IMG/VR virus record: IMGVR_UViG_3300045973_000630
Coordinates: 1-56,769 of that record
Reading direction: 5' to 3' (one strand)
Origin: a virus
Lineage: Duplodnaviria > Caudoviricetes
Length of the DNA stretch: 56,769 nt
Shown: positions 6,020 to 19,962 of the stretch, in pieces
Numbering within the stretch: position 1 is the stretch's first letter
Layout: every line of letters starts with the position of its first letter
Notes under the pieces: generated by a model
Seen by the model: only the letters and a program-made list of their open reading frames with translations
Told to the model about the DNA's origin: nothing
Database searches by the model: none
Position numbers and translations under genes: made by a program

Positions 6020-6620
6020 GGAGACCATTAAATTCAAGTCTTTGACTTGATGCAGCATCTACGTTAATTGGGACCGTGAAATATACGACTGCAATCAAAT
6101 GACTGGGCAGGTAAAAACTAACCCCGGAAGAGTCGGACCAGGCACACCTCAAAGCAGAAGACCTTATTTCTGTAGCGGTAACTCGCGAAGTGTACTAGGC
6201 ATCGTTGAGAATTTGAGCCTAGCGAAAAGCCCACCGTAGAAAGTAACTTTAAGGGGAGTTTGAAGACCCTTAAATGAAGCCAAGATATAAACCTTCTAGC
6301 GAATTTGTAAGGATTGGAAAACTTATAGTAGTAGCTATCTGGCGGTATTAATTTGGGAGAAATATCTAATAGGTTTGTGAAAACTTTGACTATTAGAAAA
6401 TACCCCCAATAGGTATTGCTTTGCCAAATCCAATAGCATTTAAAATCTTTCATTATTTTGTGAACAACAGCGTTTCACAGCCTCACGCTGTTCGGCGATA
6501 CTCTGGAATGTTGTTCTAAGAAAGAGTCGATCACAACGAAATACCAACAATACCTTAGGACTATTTGGGAACCTAGTACATGTTTCATATAACTTAATAA
6601 GCTTACGAGTATTATGTGAA
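6020..6620 (+). ncRNA. candidate large structured non-coding RNA (~600 nt)
   Basis: The only long intergenic gap. It holds at least eight complementary stems, some nested (see findings). Strand is inferred from the flanking genes. Confidence 0.55.
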
Positions 6621-6649: not shown

Positions 6650-6676
6650 CTAAGAAAATCCAGGAGGAATTAACAA

Positions 6677-9277
6677 ATGTCAAAACGAATTATTACTCGC
6701 GAACAACTAATAGATCCCAAACTAAAAGGCTTAACTGCAATCTCGAGCGTAGTTAAACGAACTTTAGGACCAGGTGGACTATTAATTTTAATCGAAAGAG
6801 TTGGGCAAACACTAGAAGGACTTCCGCTCGGGCCTAAGATCACAAAGGATGGGGTAAGTGTCGCGGAAGAGTGCGCATCTATAGATAAGGCTGAAGATAT
6901 TATAATTCAAGCGGTTAAGGGAATTTGCCGTAAAACAGTTAGTACTGCGGGTGATGGCCCCCAACCACTTTATAGTAAAGTTCTTACTCCAAAAGGTTTT
7001 ATAGAGATGCGAGATGTAAGGGTTGGGATGGTTATCTGTGGTACTAACGGAACAGTTCAAAAAGTTTTAGGGGTTTTCCCAAAAGGCCAAAAAGAGATCT
7101 ATGAAGTAGAGATTCAAAATAAAGGAATAGTAGAATGTTGCGAAGACCATGTTTGGTCAGTTACTAAAAACAGTAATGGGGGCGCGGATTCTGTAAAATC
7201 TGTAGCGGAACTTATAAAAGATTATAAAAAAGAAGGTATACAGTCTACAAAATATAATTATTATATACCAAAAACTCCGGTTTACTTTCAAGAGAATACT
7301 GCGGAAATGCCCTTAGACCCATATTTACTTGGAGTTTTGTTAGGAGATGGTTGTTTAAAAGATGGTTCTAGTATTGAGTTAGGACTGGGAGTTAAAAAAG
7401 AACATATATTACAAAAATTAAAACCACCTAAGGGAATTAATACAAATATCCAATTTGTAGAGTCTAGGAATTATTTTAGAGTTAAATTTTCAGGTATTTC
7501 GGAGACCGGAAAATCAATGAGAGATTATGTAGAGTCTTTAGGATTAAGAGACGCAGGTAGTTTTACTAAGTTTATTCCAAAATCCTATTTATACGCCTCT
7601 ATTGAAACTAGATCCCAAGTCCTACAAGGATTAATTGATACAGACGGATGCGTTAACGAGCGAGGCTTATTTGAGTTTAGTACAGGCTCAAAAGAACTAG
7701 CAACGGACCTTCGAGACCTAGTTTTGAGTTTAGGTAAGACAGTTCATATGTATCTCAGAGATCGAAGTAATGACAATGCATTCTCAAAGACTCCCATGTA
7801 TAGAATTGGAGAATTAAAAGGATTTATACATGGAGATAAAATAAAAGAAATTAAAGCTACTGGCAGGTTTACCGAAATGCAGTGCATTAAAGTAAGTAAT
7901 CCGGATAGTTTATACATAACGGATAATTATGTAGTTACACATAATACCACAACTGCTATGGTATTAGGTGAAGCAATTGTAAACGAGACCGAGCGCATCT
8001 TAAAAGAAGATACTAAGCTTAACCCGCAATTAGTTAGAGAATCTCTAGAAGAGGCATCTTTACAAGTAATTAAGAAACTTAAAAAGATAGCAATTAAAGT
8101 TAATAATAATAAAACTATCCAACAAGTAGCTACAATCTCTGCAAACGGAGACGAATCTATTGGAGATATTATCGCAGCAGCTTTTGCGCATGTAGGTGCC
8201 GAAGGGGTTGTAACTGTAGATGAGGGACATACTTCAAAAGTTACCTTAGATGTAGTTGACGGATATCAGTTCAATAGGGGCGCCGAGGGTCGTACCGCGT
8301 TTTTCAATAATAGAGACGCAACCCAATTTGAAGCGGAAGATGCAGCATTAATTATTTATGATGGAAAATTATATAACTATACTCAATTAATTCCAGCACT
8401 TAAGTTATTAGCGGGAGTCGGTGCGGATGAAAAAGCATCTCGAAAGATGCCGCCCACTGTAATTGTGGCAAATGAGTTCAGTCCAGAAGTACTTCAGTTC
8501 CTGTTAATTCAAAAAACAGAGATGGGGATGACCTTCTGTCCAATCACTGGACCGAATACTACCCATGTGAGATCTGGGTACTATGATGATTTAGCAGTTT
8601 ACTCAGGTGGAACTAGACTTGGAAATGGAGCACGCAACCTTGAGTCTATTGAAATGGATGATATTGGCCTCGTAAAAAGAGCATTATCTGATAAATATAA
8701 AACTACATTATATGATGGGCAAGGTTCTGAAGAATCAATTCTAGAAAGAGTAGACCAATTAAAAGCTGCAAAAGCACAAGCAGAGTCCCCATATGACGCA
8801 CAAATCTTAAATGATAGACTTGCATCACTAACTAATGGTATAGCTAAAATTGGAGTTGGTGGAACTACTGAAATGGAAATTAAAGAGAAGTATGACCGAA
8901 TAGAGGATGCATTAAACGCAGCACGCGCGGCAATCGAGGAGGGAGTTGTACCAGGCGGTGGAACTACTTTATTAAGAATTGCGTTAGAGATGCCTGAGAA
9001 GACAGTTGGTCAAAAGATCCTAAAAGTAGCATTACAAGCTCCATTCTTTCAAATCTTAGAGAATATTGGTATTTTTAAAGAAGAAGCTCTAGAAGTGTCT
9101 AAAACTCTCGTTAAGAGTAAAAGTAAGGTTTATGATGCAAGAACTAAGCAGATCAAAAATGCGATGACTGCGGGGATTATAGACCCAGTAAAGGTGACTA
9201 GAACTGCCTTGGAGAACGCGGTATCAATAGCAACCCTATTAAGTACTTGCGGTGGAGCAATTACTTACGAAAAATAA
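6677..9277 (+). CDS. groEL: chaperonin GroEL (Cpn60) precursor containing an intein
   Basis: TLGPGG, ITKDGVSVA, AGDG...TTTA, VATISANGD, EDALNAARAAIEEGVVPGGG and GIIDPVKVTRTALENA. It is 537 aa after removal of the intein. Confidence 0.96.
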   Translation: MSKRIITREQLIDPKLKGLTAISSVVKRTLGPGGLLILIERVGQTLEGLPLGPKITKDGVSVAEECASIDKAEDIIIQAVKGICRKTVSTAGDGPQPLYSKVLTPKGFIEMRDVRVGMVICGTNGTVQKVLGVFPKGQKEIYEVEIQNKGIVECCEDHVWSVTKNSNGGADSVKSVAELIKDYKKEGIQSTKYNYYIPKTPVYFQENTAEMPLDPYLLGVLLGDGCLKDGSSIELGLGVKKEHILQKLKPPKGINTNIQFVESRNYFRVKFSGISETGKSMRDYVESLGLRDAGSFTKFIPKSYLYASIETRSQVLQGLIDTDGCVNERGLFEFSTGSKELATDLRDLVLSLGKTVHMYLRDRSNDNAFSKTPMYRIGELKGFIHGDKIKEIKATGRFTEMQCIKVSNPDSLYITDNYVVTHNTTTAMVLGEAIVNETERILKEDTKLNPQLVRESLEEASLQVIKKLKKIAIKVNNNKTIQQVATISANGDESIGDIIAAAFAHVGAEGVVTVDEGHTSKVTLDVVDGYQFNRGAEGRTAFFNNRDATQFEAEDAALIIYDGKLYNYTQLIPALKLLAGVGADEKASRKMPPTVIVANEFSPEVLQFLLIQKTEMGMTFCPITGPNTTHVRSGYYDDLAVYSGGTRLGNGARNLESIEMDDIGLVKRALSDKYKTTLYDGQGSEESILERVDQLKAAKAQAESPYDAQILNDRLASLTNGIAKIGVGGTTEMEIKEKYDRIEDALNAARAAIEEGVVPGGGTTLLRIALEMPEKTVGQKILKVALQAPFFQILENIGIFKEEALEVSKTLVKSKSKVYDARTKQIKNAMTAGIIDPVKVTRTALENAVSIATLLSTCGGAITYEK
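6959..7945 (+). mobile_element. class 3 intein with LAGLIDADG homing endonuclease (329 aa)
   Basis: Starts PQPLYSKVLTP. Block B CEDHVW, endonuclease motifs LLGVLLGDG and LQGLIDTDG, block F MQCIKV, block G VTHN|T. Confidence 0.92.
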
Positions 9278-17175: not shown

Positions 17176-19962
17176 ATGACTTGGCCGACTAAATATAATT
17201 TAATAGATTCAGAAGAACTTATATCTAAAACTGATCAATATTTAATGAACGAAGATGGAACTCCCAAATTTCCGGTAATTTCGTTGGACACTGAAACTAA
17301 CGGACTAGCCTTGTATAAGACCTCAATAGTTGGTATATCCTTCTCAGTAGATCAATATCATGGATTCTATCTTCCATTATTAATATGGAAATCTGATCCA
17401 AATTCTAAAAAATTAAGAACAAAAGATGGAATTAAGCGAGAAGTTTTAACAGACGGACAACTATATTGTCCATGGACCGATACTTATTACGATGAATTTG
17501 TAAAACCACAAGATGTAAAGTACCCAGACTGGGTTCCGGCTATTATCGAACGTTGGTTTGGAAAGACTCAGTTATTTGCATGGAATGCGCCATTTGATAT
17601 AAACCATATTTTTATAAACTTTGGAATAGACCTAAAAAACAATTTAGTAGTAGATGGCGGATTATTAACTCATATTCTAAATGAAAATGAATCAGTCGGA
17701 TTAAAAGAGACCGCCAATAGATATGCTGCACAATTAGGATTTAATCAATATGTGCTGGCTACTGCTGAAAAAGAAGAATTAAAAGGTTCAATAATTCGTA
17801 ATGGAGGAACGGGAACTCAAGTATGGCGAGCAGATATAGAACCTCAAATGCATTACGCGGCTCAGGACACTATGTTGACTCATGGGCTTATACCTTTACT
17901 ATTACAAGATTTATATCAAGAACGTGGCGAGGATTATGCACAATTAGAATCTTGGATTTTCGATCAAGAAGTAATGCCCTTATGTAAAGAAGTAATAATT
18001 GATTTGAAACGAAATGGAATTTTCTTAGATGTTCCACATTTTGAAAAGTTAAGAGATCAGAATGCTAAAAAGTTAATAGAACTAGAAGATAACTTTATTT
18101 TAGCAATTACACCTTATTTAAAAGATTTCGAAAAGGGTAAATCTTTAGATGAAGCAATTTCGCACCAAAGACTAGTTAAAAAAATTATAGAGTTAGAAGG
18201 TTTAGAACTTCCACAAGTTTTAGATAAAAAGACTGGAGAGACCAAGGAAAGTTTAGCGAAGGCTGTAGTTAAGAAGACTTATGAAGAAACTCCGCATTGG
18301 ATTTGGGGTTATATCTTAGGTCAAGATGAGATTAAATACTCAGAAGCAAAACTAAATAAAATTAAACAAGAACTATATGAAGAAGTTGAAGGTCGAAGGT
18401 ATCGGTTTAATTTAGGATCCAGTGATCATTTAGTTTGGCTATTCTTTGATAAATTGAAGGAAAATAGACACTTATTTGAAAAAACAGCAGGATCTACCGA
18501 AGAAGAATGGAAACCATCATTAGATGCAGACCAAATCAAAACTCATTTATTACCAAAATATGCGTGGGTTAACTACCTTTTGAAGTATAAAAAGATTCTT
18601 AAGATTCAATCAACATATGTAGAACCAGCATTAGAACTACATATTGACGGATGGATGAGAGTAGATTATAAACAAAATGGAACTACCTCAGGTAGGTTTT
18701 CATGCGCTGGTGGATATAACTTACAGACACTTCCGCGGGTTGAGGATGAACAAGAAGCATTAGAACAATGTAGTAAATGTAATTCTAAGAATATTGAATT
18801 AGATGAGTATATTGAATGTGCCGCAAATGTTATATGTGGAGATTGTGGACATATCGAGCATGATATTACTAGACCTTCAGCAATTAAAAAGGGGTTCATA
18901 GCACCCCCGGGATATAAGATAGTAAATGCAGATTATGCAAGTCTTGAACCGCGGATTTTCGCTTATATTAGTGAGGAACCAGATATTAAGAAAGTTTATA
19001 GTGACGGACTCGATCTATACTCAAAAGTGTATTGTGATATGTTTGATAAAGCGGGTCAATATTCAGCAGATCCTAACGCAAAAAACTTCCTTAAAAAGGT
19101 TTACCCAAAGGGAAGAAAGCTAATAAAAGCAACAGTTTTGGGAATTCCGTATGGCGCAGGTAACGCCCAGGTCGCAACTATGACTGGACATACAATAAAG
19201 TCTACAAAACCAAATAAACATGGCATTTATGAAGAACGTCCAGATGTTGCAAAAGGAAAAGAACTTAGAGATTTATATCTAGCAACTTATCCTAGACTTT
19301 CTTATTATATGGAACGAATGGAGCGGCAAGCGGTAGAACTTGGATATGTACAATGTAAGTATGGAAGACGCCGGCATTTTGAATGGGCTAAACTAATTGG
19401 TGACTTTTTAGAGCAACTTCCTACTAAGAATGATTTTCATTATGATCAAATGTCTAAAGTAAATTCATTGGTTCAAGTAAGTAGTACTAAGTTACAAGGA
19501 ACTAGCGTTGATATTAAAGATATAAATTCAGGAAATATTATATGGTTGTTAACTGAAAAGAATCTGGAAGAGCTATGTAAAGTTTTAAATATTAATTTTT
19601 CAGTCGATAAATTCGGAAAAGATGGATGCAAGCAAAAAGGGGGTTGGTCATACATTAAGTCACTTTTAAAAGGTGATCTTAACAATGCTAAAAACTTCCC
19701 AATTCAAGGGTTAGCAGGATCTGTAACTAACATGGGTATGCTCGTAACTGCTAGGCTTTTTAAAGAACATAATATTGACGGTTGGATTTTTACCACAGTT
19801 CATGATGAGATTGGCTGTTATGTTCGAGAAGATCAGGCAGAATTGGGGCGAGAGTTGCTTCAAAATGGTATGGAAAATAATATTTTTACACTTCCACTAG
19901 CAAACGATGTTAAAATGATAGCAGAACCTATAATATGTGACAATCTCAGAGACTCTAAATAA
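17176..19962 (+). CDS. polA: family A DNA polymerase with 3'-5' exonuclease
   Basis: DTETNG, NAPFD and YAAQD (exonuclease). TTSGRFS, NLQ, ADYASLEPR (A), RKLIKATVLGIPYG (B), NFPIQG and VHDE (C). Confidence 0.96.
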   Translation: MTWPTKYNLIDSEELISKTDQYLMNEDGTPKFPVISLDTETNGLALYKTSIVGISFSVDQYHGFYLPLLIWKSDPNSKKLRTKDGIKREVLTDGQLYCPWTDTYYDEFVKPQDVKYPDWVPAIIERWFGKTQLFAWNAPFDINHIFINFGIDLKNNLVVDGGLLTHILNENESVGLKETANRYAAQLGFNQYVLATAEKEELKGSIIRNGGTGTQVWRADIEPQMHYAAQDTMLTHGLIPLLLQDLYQERGEDYAQLESWIFDQEVMPLCKEVIIDLKRNGIFLDVPHFEKLRDQNAKKLIELEDNFILAITPYLKDFEKGKSLDEAISHQRLVKKIIELEGLELPQVLDKKTGETKESLAKAVVKKTYEETPHWIWGYILGQDEIKYSEAKLNKIKQELYEEVEGRRYRFNLGSSDHLVWLFFDKLKENRHLFEKTAGSTEEEWKPSLDADQIKTHLLPKYAWVNYLLKYKKILKIQSTYVEPALELHIDGWMRVDYKQNGTTSGRFSCAGGYNLQTLPRVEDEQEALEQCSKCNSKNIELDEYIECAANVICGDCGHIEHDITRPSAIKKGFIAPPGYKIVNADYASLEPRIFAYISEEPDIKKVYSDGLDLYSKVYCDMFDKAGQYSADPNAKNFLKKVYPKGRKLIKATVLGIPYGAGNAQVATMTGHTIKSTKPNKHGIYEERPDVAKGKELRDLYLATYPRLSYYMERMERQAVELGYVQCKYGRRRHFEWAKLIGDFLEQLPTKNDFHYDQMSKVNSLVQVSSTKLQGTSVDIKDINSGNIIWLLTEKNLEELCKVLNINFSVDKFGKDGCKQKGGWSYIKSLLKGDLNNAKNFPIQGLAGSVTNMGMLVTARLFKEHNIDGWIFTTVHDEIGCYVREDQAELGRELLQNGMENNIFTLPLANDVKMIAEPIICDNLRDSK

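What the first reader, a model, noticed from the sequence alone, without database searches (positions are those of the whole stretch)
6677..9277. Class 3 intein inserted in the GDG|TTT ATP-binding motif of a phage GroEL
Seen: 329 aa (6959-7945) interrupt AGDG|TTTA exactly, and removal gives a 537-aa chaperonin. The insert starts with Pro rather than Cys/Ser. It has Trp in block B (DHVW), Cys in block F (MQCIKV) and Thr in block G (VTHN), plus two LAGLIDADG motifs. Knowledge: W-C-T with a non-nucleophilic first residue defines class 3 inteins. Inteins mostly sit in replication, recombination and nucleotide enzymes or terminases, and I know of no well-described chaperonin host. Inference: chaperonin activity depends on splicing, which could be conditional on temperature or redox state.
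Basis: partly seen in the sequence, partly recalled or inferred. Interest (0 to 1): 0.85.

Follow-up and report, generated by a model that had tools for sequence, protein, structure and literature searches.

The report
Self-splicing intein inside a phage chaperonin
A phage gene for the GroEL protein-folding machine is interrupted, exactly in its ATP-binding loop, by a mobile self-removing protein element (a class 3 intein carrying its own DNA-cutting enzyme); many uncultured phages carry the same element, yet I found no paper that describes it.

Summary
ORF 6677-9277 (866 aa) is a group I chaperonin whose GDG|TTT loop is split by a 329-aa insert (6959-7945). Removing the insert leaves 537 aa that align without a gap to intein-less relatives.

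The insert has every sequence mark of a class 3 intein: Pro1, His64/Trp66, Cys309, Thr327-His-Asn329 and Thr+1. Trp66, Cys309 and Thr327 align with the catalytic Trp67, Cys124 and Thr143 of the solved class 3 MchDnaB1 intein. A confident model (pLDDT 92.9) matches PI-SceI and the class 3 DnaB inteins.

It is not a one-off. I found 125 complete intein-bearing GroELs, all at this site. They include full-length, endonuclease-decayed and mini forms, and every context I examined was phage.

The window's copy is the only intein-bearing member of an 84-member extein clade. Its nearest intein (68% identical) sits in a GroEL whose exteins are 31% identical, and AU tests reject congruence. It was therefore acquired horizontally.

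Ten literature searches found no chaperonin intein. Conditional splicing is untested; it has precedent only in a mycobacterial class 3 DnaB intein. Verdict: a real, mobile class 3 intein in a new host protein.

The parts
6662..6667 (+). Shine-Dalgarno-like AGGAGG, 9 nt upstream of the ATG
   Evidence: Read directly from the sequence.
6677..9277 (+). Precursor ORF: GroEL with inserted intein, 866 aa plus stop
   Evidence: NCBIfam GroEL 3.2e-113 in 2 stretches. Pfam Cpn60_TCP1 2.1e-30 and LAGLIDADG_3 2.7e-6.
6677..6958 (+). N-extein: GroEL residues 1-94, ending ...AGDG
   Evidence: Alignment A1. GDG is invariant in 27 of 27 rows.
6959..7945 (+). Class 3 intein, 329 aa (precursor residues 95-423)
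6959..7273 (+). N-terminal lobe of the splicing (HINT) domain, intein residues 1-105. Holds Pro1 and block B (ECCEDHVW; His64 at nt 7148-7150, Trp66 at nt 7154-7156).
   Evidence: phmmer alignment to gp41-1 (3.1e-8) and to class 3 MchDnaB1 (1.4e-3), where His64/Trp66 align with His65/Trp67. The boundary comes from mini-inteins that lack about 106-285.
7274..7813 (+). LAGLIDADG homing endonuclease domain, about intein residues 106-285. Motif 1 is around nt 7319-7357 (Asp130) and motif 2 around nt 7601-7654 (Asp229).
   Evidence: Pfam LAGLIDADG_3 4.9e-7 on residues 220-269. Foldseek matches PI-SceI 4e-17 (TMq 0.73) and I-DmoI. The domain is absent from 9 mini-intein alleles.
7814..7945 (+). C-terminal lobe of the splicing domain, intein residues 286-329. 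Block F MQCIKV (Cys309, nt 7883-7885); block G Thr327-His328-Asn329 (nt 7937-7945).
   Evidence: Cys309 and Thr327 align with Cys124 and Thr143 of MchDnaB1 (residue roles from PMC7664689). Cys309, His328 and Asn329 are kept in 125 of 125 complete relatives.
7946..9277 (+). C-extein: GroEL residues from Thr+1 (TTTAMVLGEA...) to the stop
   Evidence: NCBIfam best stretch is residues 422-862 against profile positions 86-520 of 543. Alignment A1.

Best explanation
The gene encodes a phage group I chaperonin as a precursor. Its nucleotide-binding GDGTTT loop is split by a mobile class 3 intein that carries a LAGLIDADG homing endonuclease.

Inferred splicing mechanism, from the class 3 pathway established for the mycobacteriophage Bethlehem DnaB intein:
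1. Pro1 cannot act as a nucleophile, so the block F Cys309 attacks the Gly94-Pro95 peptide bond. This forms a thioester branched intermediate.
2. The N-extein is passed to the side chain of Thr+1.
3. Asn329 cyclises and releases the intein.
4. An O-to-N shift rebuilds the GDG-TTT peptide bond, giving a 537-aa GroEL.

Until splicing happens the ATP site is disrupted, so chaperonin activity depends on splicing.

The freed intein's endonuclease is expected to cut intein-less GroEL alleles of co-infecting phages at the conserved GDG|TTT coding sequence. Repair then copies the intein in (homing).

What is shown: the window's lineage acquired its copy horizontally from a distant GroEL allele. What is inferred: the splicing chemistry and the endonuclease activity.
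For: Anatomy: the insert lies exactly between GDG and TTT, and intein-less relatives align across the site without a gap.

Class 3 marks: Pro1, His64, Trp66, Cys309, Thr327, His328, Asn329 and Thr+1 are all present. Trp66, Cys309 and Thr327 align residue for residue with Trp67, Cys124 and Thr143 of the solved class 3 MchDnaB1 intein (roles from PMC7664689). The definition of the class was read in PMC2807308.

Fold: the AF2 model of the intein has pLDDT 92.9 and pTM 0.89. Foldseek finds PI-SceI at 4e-17 (TMq 0.73), TliVMA, PI-PfuI, and the class 3 DnaB inteins 6riy/6rix/6bs8 at TMt 0.77-0.78.

Selection for splicing: of 125 complete intein-bearing GroELs, 125 keep the block B His, block F Cys, His-Asn and Thr+1. 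115 keep the full class 3 signature. The exteins keep GroEL motifs along their full length.

States expected of a homing cycle, among the 124 complete intein-bearing GroELs that are in the extein tree: 100 with both LAGLIDADG acidic residues, 15 decayed and 9 mini-inteins of 135-164 aa. There are also 114 empty alleles. Empty sites in the syntenic phages L013-L015 differ from the window's flanks only at wobble positions within the 12 nt on either side.

Mobility:
- Intein and extein identities are uncorrelated over 231 pairs (Spearman -0.08).
- The window's intein is 68% identical to that of P0083, whose exteins are 31% identical.
- The window's protein is the only intein-bearing row in an extein clade of 84 (support 98).
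- At least 13 changes of intein state are needed on the 238-row extein tree.
- AU tests reject {P0001, P0083} on extein data (p 0.012) and reject the extein-defined split on intein data (p 0.00125).
Against: No experiment shows that this protein splices, needs Cys309, or cuts DNA. Everything is inferred from sequence, a model and homologs.

The nearest sampled intein is only 68% identical. The donor is therefore unsampled, and the transfer need not be recent.

The AU groups were named after identities had been seen. The extein of P0083 is a very long branch (3.46).

The intein-less rows in the tree are mostly the best hits to this protein (98 of 114 come), so the count of 13 state changes rests on uneven sampling.

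The equivalog model TIGR02348 scores 355 bits, below its 582 cut-off. The extein is therefore a divergent GroEL.

No GroES gene lies in the 56.8-kb fragment, which is 49% complete.
Confidence: 0.85

Rival explanations
1. The intein is more than a selfish passenger. It acts as a post-translational switch that delays or gates activation of the phage chaperonin according to redox state, metal ions or temperature. This would work through the catalytic Cys309 and the conserved cysteines Cys27, Cys60 and Cys61.
For: Besides Cys309 (124 of 124), three further cysteines are conserved in the intein: Cys27 in 111 of 124, Cys60 in 121 of 124, and Cys61 in 95 of 124 (Ser in 26).

Cys61 occupies block B position 7. 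In the modelled prototype class 3 intein, that position lies by the N-terminal scissile bond (PMC2807308).

Precedent exists in the class 3 M. smegmatis DnaB intein, which also sits in a P-loop. It is reversibly blocked by a disulfide to its catalytic Cys under oxidative stress (PMC6195587, passages read). Its splicing is temperature-sensitive (PMC13476343, abstract read).
Against: Nothing here tests conditionality. Cys at block B position 6 is also present in the class 1 relative gp41-1 (alignment) and in the portal intein of L012, so it may be a structural trait of the lineage.

Inter-cysteine distances could not be measured, because the tools return no model coordinates.

83 of 84 members of the window's own extein clade lack the intein. 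That fits a parasite better than a needed regulator.
Confidence: 0.15
2. The insert is a decayed element that no longer splices, so this GroEL copy is dead or makes an inactive fusion protein.
For: Some relatives do look damaged. IMG/VR contigs L009/L010 and L011 have a frame break inside the intein. 15 of 124 alleles have lost a LAGLIDADG acidic residue.
Against: In the window the frame is open for 866 codons. All splicing residues and both LAGLIDADG aspartates are intact. The exteins remain 72-78% identical to intein-less relatives, with every invariant GroEL column kept.
Confidence: 0.04
3. It splices, but not by the class 3 route. For example, Thr+1 could attack the N-terminal junction directly, as in class 2 inteins, with Cys309 playing only a structural role.
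For: Seven relatives at the same site begin with Cys1 while keeping Trp, Cys and Thr. The family therefore tolerates another first-step nucleophile. An engineered WCT version of gp41-1 did not splice productively (PMC7664689), so the triplet alone is not sufficient.
Against: Class 2 is defined by lacking the WCT triplet (PMC2807308). Here Trp66 is kept in 123 of 125 relatives, Cys309 in 125 of 125 and Thr327 in 124 of 125. In the prototype the block F Cys is absolutely required.
Confidence: 0.05

Closest known systems
Mycobacteriophage Bethlehem DnaB intein (prototype class 3 intein; PMC2807308)
   Same: Both have Pro1, Trp at block B position 12, Cys at block F position 4, Thr at block G position 5 and Thr+1. 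Both come from phages, are about 340 aa and carry an endonuclease domain.
   Different: The host protein differs: a helicase there, a chaperonin here. Sequence similarity is low; mycobacteriophage hits are 25-29% identical. Splicing was shown by experiment there and not here.
Class 3 inteins in the Walker A loop of phage helicase-like ATPases (Escherichia phage ph0011 helicase; Klebsiella phage KP13-16 1199-aa protein)
   Same: These are the best matches among 50,697 deposited phage records, at 31-35% identity over the whole intein. They share the AQPL/PQPL start, H-x-W, the block F Cys, THN|T and a LAGLIDADG domain. They are also inserted in a glycine-rich phosphate-binding loop just before a Thr (GxGK|T there, GDG|T here).
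   Different: They begin with Ala1 rather than Pro1. The fold and function of the host protein are different.
MchDnaB1 and MsmDnaB1 class 3 mini-inteins (PDB 6rix/6riy, 6bs8)
   Same: The catalytic Trp, Cys and Thr align. The splicing domain superposes at TMt 0.77-0.78. Both sit in an ATP-binding loop.
   Different: They are cellular mini-inteins without an endonuclease. Sequence similarity is weak (E 1.4e-3 and 0.33).
gp41-1 intein (PDB 6qaz; its engineered WCT variant is 6riz)
   Same: It is the best sequence match among solved structures (9e-7; the WCT variant scores 3e-8). It shares the GVFPKG...C(C/S)E(D/E)HL motif and THN.
   Different: gp41-1 is a naturally split class 1 intein with Cys1, Phe at the Trp position and Asp at the block F position (PMC7664689).
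PI-SceI (yeast VMA1 intein)
   Same: It is the best overall fold match. Both have a splicing domain plus a LAGLIDADG endonuclease (4e-17, TMq 0.73).
   Different: It is a class 1 intein of about 454 aa with an extra DNA-recognition region, and it is eukaryotic.
Virus-encoded GroEL chaperonins (virioplankton GroELs, PMC5649160; phage EL gp146, PDB 6tmt)
   Same: Both are phage-borne group I chaperonins. The window's fragment has no GroES gene, like one virioplankton clade.
   Different: That survey's main text has 0 occurrences of 'intein', 'insertion', 'homing' or 'interrupted'. EL gp146 is only a distant relative: an intein-less relative of the window's GroEL, P0016, scores 2e-19 against it and 1.7e-82 against E. 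coli GroEL.

Membership tests
Intein (HINT splicing domain) | In-frame insert in a conserved host protein whose intein-less homologs are colinear across the site | tested here: met
   A1. Empty sites in the syntenic contigs L013-L015.
Intein (HINT splicing domain) | HINT fold | tested here: met
   AF2 pLDDT 92.9. Foldseek matches PI-SceI, Prp8 and DnaB inteins.
Intein (HINT splicing domain) | Block B His, C-terminal His-Asn, and a nucleophile at +1 | tested here: met
   His64, His328-Asn329 and Thr+1. Each is kept in 125 of 125 relatives.
Intein (HINT splicing domain) | Protein splicing observed | not testable with these tools
   Needs expression and mass spectrometry.
Class 3 intein | First residue is not Cys, Ser or Thr | tested here: met
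   Pro95 of the precursor. Pro in 118 of 125 relatives and Cys in 7.
Class 3 intein | Trp at block B position 12, two residues after the block B His | tested here: met
   The motif is DHVW. Trp66 aligns with Trp67 of MchDnaB1. Kept in 123 of 125 relatives.
Class 3 intein | Cys at block F position 4 | tested here: met
   The motif is MQCIKV. Cys309 aligns with Cys124 of MchDnaB1. Kept in 125 of 125 relatives.
Class 3 intein | Thr at block G position 5, and Thr or Ser at +1 | tested here: met
   The junction is THN|T. Thr327 is kept in 124 of 125 relatives and Thr+1 in 125 of 125.
Class 3 intein | Obligate block F Cys and a block F branched intermediate | not testable with these tools
   A biochemical criterion of PMC2807308.
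LAGLIDADG homing endonuclease | Two LAGLIDADG motifs, each ending in an acidic residue, in the alpha-beta-beta-alpha-beta-beta-alpha fold | tested here: met
   Asp130 and Asp229. Pfam LAGLIDADG_3 4.9e-7. Foldseek matches PI-SceI and I-DmoI.
LAGLIDADG homing endonuclease | Cleaves the intein-less allele | not testable with these tools
   Supported only indirectly, by the incongruence of intein and extein trees.
Group I chaperonin GroEL | Scores above the curated family cut-off | tested here: met
   NF009487 scores 378.9 bits against a cut-off of 352. The stricter equivalog TIGR02348 scores 355, below its cut-off of 582, so this is a divergent GroEL.
Group I chaperonin GroEL | Intact GDGTTT nucleotide-binding loop | tested here: inconclusive
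   The loop is split in the precursor and would be restored only by splicing. The role of the loop in ATP binding is recalled from memory and comes from no call.
Group I chaperonin GroEL | Partner co-chaperonin GroES | tested here: not met
   No Cpn10 match in the 56.8-kb record, which CheckV rates 49% complete. Some phage chaperonins work without one, as stated in PMC5434244.

The most novel reading that the evidence does not exclude
The GroEL intein is kept in some phage lineages because it works as a thiol- or metal-sensitive timer. The cluster of conserved cysteines (Cys27, Cys60, Cys61) around the catalytic Cys309 would hold the chaperonin precursor inactive under oxidising, zinc-rich or hot conditions, and release active GroEL only when the infected cell is in the right state. 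If so, it would be the first protein-folding machine whose own activation is gated by protein splicing.
Probability: 0.12. Interest if true: 0.8.

Novelty: new member of a known kind. Interest (0 to 1): 0.55.

Why it matters
Inteins are known mainly from replication, repair, nucleotide-metabolism and phage packaging proteins. This finding adds the central protein-folding machine to the list of host proteins. It also shows a large, diverse, apparently virus-restricted population of such inteins at one site, at least 125 complete examples.

The site is again a phosphate-binding loop. This fits the idea that inteins move between unrelated ATPases through similar nucleotide-binding motifs (bioRxiv 10.1101/2025.01.02.630785, passages read).

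The family offers several things in one orthologous set: full-length, decayed and mini forms, empty alleles, and both Pro1 and Cys1 variants. That makes it useful for studying the homing cycle and the transition between class 3 and class 1 splicing chemistry.

A 2026 paper reports that GroEL stabilises an intein-containing precursor (PMC13476343, abstract read). A GroEL that must itself splice is a natural next case to examine.

Class 3 mini-inteins with Thr+1 may also be of use in protein engineering.

Tried and rejected

Megablast of the gene against deposited phages: no match. tblastn: 0 of 987 matching records cover 80% or more of the precursor. No deposited phage therefore has this arrangement. 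The best match was the intein-less GroEL of the Flavobacterium phage elemo group, at 32%.

Sequencing runs: one DNA holder, a pond metagenome that may be the source of this DNA. No RNA holder is listed.

Laying that run on the stretch: one contig covers it with the intein, and no joint skips it. These are contigs and probably the source itself, so this says nothing about coexisting empty alleles.

Species genomes, first scan: no relative found. Second scan with the intein alignment: three short MAG contigs.
- L019 and L020 hold the same intein-GroEL.
- L019 is flanked by terminase and portal genes, so it is phage.
- L021 is a partial hit that was not resolved.

Other searches of the window: tRNA scan found none; Cpn10 search found none; a search for a second LAGLIDADG domain found none.

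Other inteins in the window's large proteins: considered and rejected. Pfam on PolA, RNR, primase-helicase, TerL, portal and SbcC found no Hint or LAGLIDADG domain.

P0252 and P0255 were first counted as GroEL with an insert. They are PhoH proteins with related inteins. P0253 and P0266 are tandem-fused GroELs without an intein. All four were removed from the counts.

Distances between the conserved cysteines in the model could not be measured, because no coordinates are returned.

Literature searches for a chaperonin intein found none. Supplementary tables of the intein surveys (PMC2807308, PMC4760082) are closed and might list one.
Full report
WHAT IS THERE

The window is a 56,769-base IMG/VR virus record. 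CheckV rates it 49% complete, and it is linear. It encodes a helicase, ribonucleotide reductase, primase-helicase, family A DNA polymerase, SbcC-like nuclease, large terminase, portal and major head protein (PHROGs). G+C is 34.3%. It is therefore about half the genome of a tailed phage.

ORF 6677-9277 on the + strand is 866 codons long and is preceded by AGGAGG. NCBIfam calls it GroEL in two stretches: NF009487, 3.2e-113, 378.9 bits against a cut-off of 352. The longer stretch runs from residue 422 to 862 against profile positions 86-520. Pfam adds a LAGLIDADG_3 domain between the two stretches.

The protein reads ...STAGDG|PQPLYSK...YVVTHN|TTTAMVLGEA.... The insert is residues 95-423, nt 6959-7945, 329 aa. 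Removing it leaves 537 aa.

IT IS A REAL INSERT, NOT A CHANCE RESEMBLANCE

A search of 5.8 billion clustered proteins returned 21 other proteins of 845-914 aa that match over the full length (43-59% identity). It also returned about a hundred proteins of about 540 aa that match only the exteins. In alignment A1 the five I took are 72-78% identical.

In A1 the short proteins carry an uninterrupted GDGTTT exactly where the long ones carry the insert. All 22 long proteins have the insert after GDG. All 22 start with Pro, have H-(L/V)-W at intein positions 64-66, have MQCIKV, and end THN followed by Thr.

Three IMG/VR contigs (L013-L015) share the window's gene order, from the genes left of the helicase to the primase-helicase (L015 reaches into the polymerase; L014 and L015 lack the RNR gene), at 30-70% protein identity. 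They carry the empty site. At the DNA level, the 12 bases on either side of the site differ from the window's flanks only at wobble positions.

WHAT KIND OF INTEIN

Tori et al. define class 3 inteins by three things: a non-nucleophilic first residue, the non-contiguous Trp (block B position 12), Cys (block F position 4) and Thr (block G position 5) triplet, and Thr or Ser at +1. Their prototype begins with Pro1 (PMC2807308, passages read). The window's intein has Pro1, His64-Val-Trp66, Cys309, Thr327-His-Asn329 and Thr+1.

A sequence search of the PDB gave these matches:
- gp41-1 intein: 9e-7 (its engineered WCT variant: 3e-8);
- class 3 MchDnaB1 intein: 1.4e-3;
- PI-SceI endonuclease region: 9e-3;
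- class 3 MsmDnaB1: 0.33.

In the MchDnaB1 alignment, His64/Trp66 fall on His65/Trp67, and Cys309/Thr327 fall on Cys124/Thr143. PMC7664689 names these as the catalytic set.

An AlphaFold2 model of the intein alone, built with a 26-row alignment, has mean pLDDT 92.9 and pTM 0.89. Foldseek against the PDB gave these matches:
- PI-SceI: 4e-17, TMq 0.73;
- TliVMA and PI-PfuI inteins;
- class 3 DnaB inteins: TMt 0.77-0.78;
- I-DmoI for the endonuclease part.

Both LAGLIDADG helices end in Asp (Asp130, Asp229).

Every sequence and fold criterion for an intein, for class 3 and for a LAGLIDADG endonuclease is therefore met. The biochemical criteria (splicing, obligate block F Cys, DNA cleavage) cannot be tested here.

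HOW COMMON IT IS

An exhaustive HMMER search of 1.84 billion cluster representatives found 32,253 proteins at E of 0.001 or better. Most of the best 150 are 800-940 aa and match in one stretch.

I aligned 258 of the 266 proteins in hand; eight longer than 1,100 aa were left out. I then removed fragments, three PhoH proteins and two tandem-fused GroELs. This left 125 complete GroELs with the insert at this site and 114 without. Because the list was cut at 150, 125 is a lower bound.

Conservation among the 125:
- block B His, block F Cys, His-Asn and Thr+1: 125 of 125 each;
- Trp: 123 (Phe in 2);
- Thr at block G position 5: 124;
- first residue Pro: 118 (Cys in 7);
- full class 3 signature: 115 of 125.

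State of the endonuclease among the 124 that are in the tree:
- both LAGLIDADG acidic residues kept: 100;
- at least one lost: 15;
- mini-inteins of 135-164 aa lacking roughly intein residues 106-285: 9.

The ESM Atlas holds two clusters, of 72 and 71 members, automatically named cpn60/LAGLIDADG and labelled as viruses.

Among 50,697 deposited phage records, none has the arrangement. In 185,579 species genomes, pattern scans found only three short MAG contigs. One of them is flanked by terminase and portal genes. Every context I could examine is phage.

IT MOVES

Over the 231 pairs of the 22 long proteins, intein identity and extein identity are uncorrelated (Spearman -0.08). In 119 pairs the intein is more than 10 points more similar than the exteins.

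The window's intein is closest to that of P0083 (68%), whose exteins are 31% identical. The next closest are P0063 and P0077 (61-64% intein, 36-37% extein). Its intein is more similar than its extein in 114 of 123 comparisons.

On a FastTree of 238 exteins, the window's protein is the only intein-bearing member of a clade of 84 (support 98). At least 13 changes of intein state are needed.

The extein data put seven distant proteins on one side of a fully supported branch and reject a P0001+P0083 clade (p-AU 0.012). The intein data reject that same seven-protein split (p-AU 0.00125).

Caveats:
- The groups were chosen after identities had been seen.
- P0083's extein is a long branch.
- Intein-less rows are over-sampled near the window.

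Even so, any close intein-bearing relative would have scored above the intein-less ones, and none appeared. I conclude that the window's lineage received its intein horizontally from a distant GroEL allele that has not been sampled.

WHERE THE INTEIN FAMILY COMES FROM

The closest deposited relatives, at 31-35% identity over the whole intein, sit in the Walker A loop of helicase-like ATPases of Escherichia phage ph0011 and Klebsiella phage KP13-16. They read GxGK|AQPL...HxW...C...THN|T.

Related inteins also occur in other host proteins:
- PhoH ATPases;
- phage portal proteins;
- a high-G+C phage portal, L012, which has the identical ECCEDHVW motif.

The GroEL site is likewise a glycine-rich phosphate-binding loop followed by Thr. 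This agrees with the proposal, in a preprint on actinophage inteins, that similar nucleotide-binding sites allow switching between host proteins (10.1101/2025.01.02.630785, passages read). This link is an inference. I did not test it.

HOW IT MOST LIKELY WORKS

The mechanism is inferred from the class 3 pathway of PMC2807308:
1. Cys309 attacks the Gly94-Pro95 bond.
2. The N-extein moves to Thr+1.
3. Asn329 cyclises and releases the intein.
4. An acyl shift restores GDG-TTT.

The insert lies in the loop that binds the nucleotide phosphates. That role is recalled from knowledge of E. coli GroEL and comes from no call. The precursor should therefore lack chaperonin activity until it splices.

The exteins behave as a working GroEL. 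An intein-less relative, P0016, scores 1.7e-82 against E. coli GroEL (PDB 1aon), but only 2e-19 against the phage EL chaperonin. No GroES gene lies in the fragment.

CONDITIONAL SPLICING

That intein is blocked by a disulfide to its catalytic Cys under oxidative stress (PMC6195587) and is temperature-sensitive (PMC13476343, abstract read).

In the GroEL inteins three further cysteines are conserved: Cys27 in 111 of 124, Cys60 in 121 of 124, and Cys61 in 95 of 124. Cys61 is at block B position 7, near the scissile bond.

This is suggestive only. The block B Cys is shared with non-GroEL relatives, and I could not measure distances. In addition, 83 of 84 members of the window's extein clade do without the intein. 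I give the switch reading about 0.12-0.15.

NOVELTY

Ten full-text searches found no paper describing an intein in GroEL, Cpn60 or a thermosome.

Targeted reading gave the same result:
- The virioplankton chaperonin survey does not mention inteins (0 occurrences).
- The main text of the large intein census does not mention GroEL.
- The Staphylococcus jumbo-phage preprint has both a GroEL and an intein, but the intein is in gyrase A.

Supplementary tables are closed and might list a case.

The mechanism class, the endonuclease type and the preference for ATP-binding loops are all known. What is new is the host protein and the size of the virus-restricted family. I rate it a new member of a known kind, with interest 0.55.

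Noticed in passing
Proteins P0127, P0172, P0182, P0218, P0220, P0229, P0238: Seven GroEL inteins at the same site begin with Cys1 (CQPL...) while keeping the Trp-Cys-Thr triplet. On the intein tree the Pro/Cys state changes at least 4 times. P0127 has exteins nearly identical to those of L001, whose intein starts with Pro. These may be natural intermediates between class 3 and class 1 chemistry.
   Followed up: partly
Proteins P0216, P0222, P0227, P0228, P0232, P0235, P0244, P0245, P0258: Nine mini-inteins of 135-164 aa sit at the GDG|T site and lack the endonuclease domain (about intein residues 106-285). The mini state changes at least 5 times on the intein tree.
   Followed up: partly
L001:1424-3928: The intein-GroEL gene of this 29.9% G+C IMG/VR contig has two in-frame TAG codons. 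One lies in the intein where relatives have Gln. The other lies in the C-extein where the near-identical P0127 has Gln. This suggests a phage that reads TAG as Gln.
   Followed up: partly
L009:about 6400-6470 (the same in L010); L011:about 6480-6560: The reading frame breaks inside the intein soon after block B. L009 and L010 come from two different metagenomes and differ at 8 of 14,491 bases, yet share the break. In L011 the break lies among A and T homopolymer runs. The cause could be a real pseudogene, a slip or an assembly error.
   Followed up: partly
Proteins P0237, P0252, P0255, P0264 (PhoH); P0251, P0257 (portal): PhoH-like ATPases of about 910-990 aa and portal proteins of 1,430-1,590 aa each hold Hint/LAGLIDADG matches at two or more separate places along the chain. 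This points to more than one related intein per protein. P0264 has its intein right after SGK in the Walker A loop.
   Followed up: partly
L012:5254-7806: The portal protein of a high-G+C (68.6%) phage contig carries a class 3 intein (Ala1, ECCEDHVW, VQCIKV, THN|T). Its block B motif is identical to the window's.
   Followed up: no
Proteins P0253 (1078 aa) and P0266 (831 aa, partial): Two GroEL copies are fused head to tail in one polypeptide, and the sequences are rich in Ala, Gly and Arg. They are not inteins and were removed from the counts.
   Followed up: no
window 17176-19962: The family A DNA polymerase is 928 aa. Pfam DNA_pol_A matches in two stretches, with a weak zinc-ribbon hit between them (residues 531-560, E 0.018). 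No Hint or LAGLIDADG domain was found.
   Followed up: no
window 6959-7945: Four cysteines of the intein are conserved across the family: Cys27, Cys60, Cys61 and Cys309. The intein's G+C (34.3%) equals that of the window, while the exteins are at 39.6%.
   Followed up: partly
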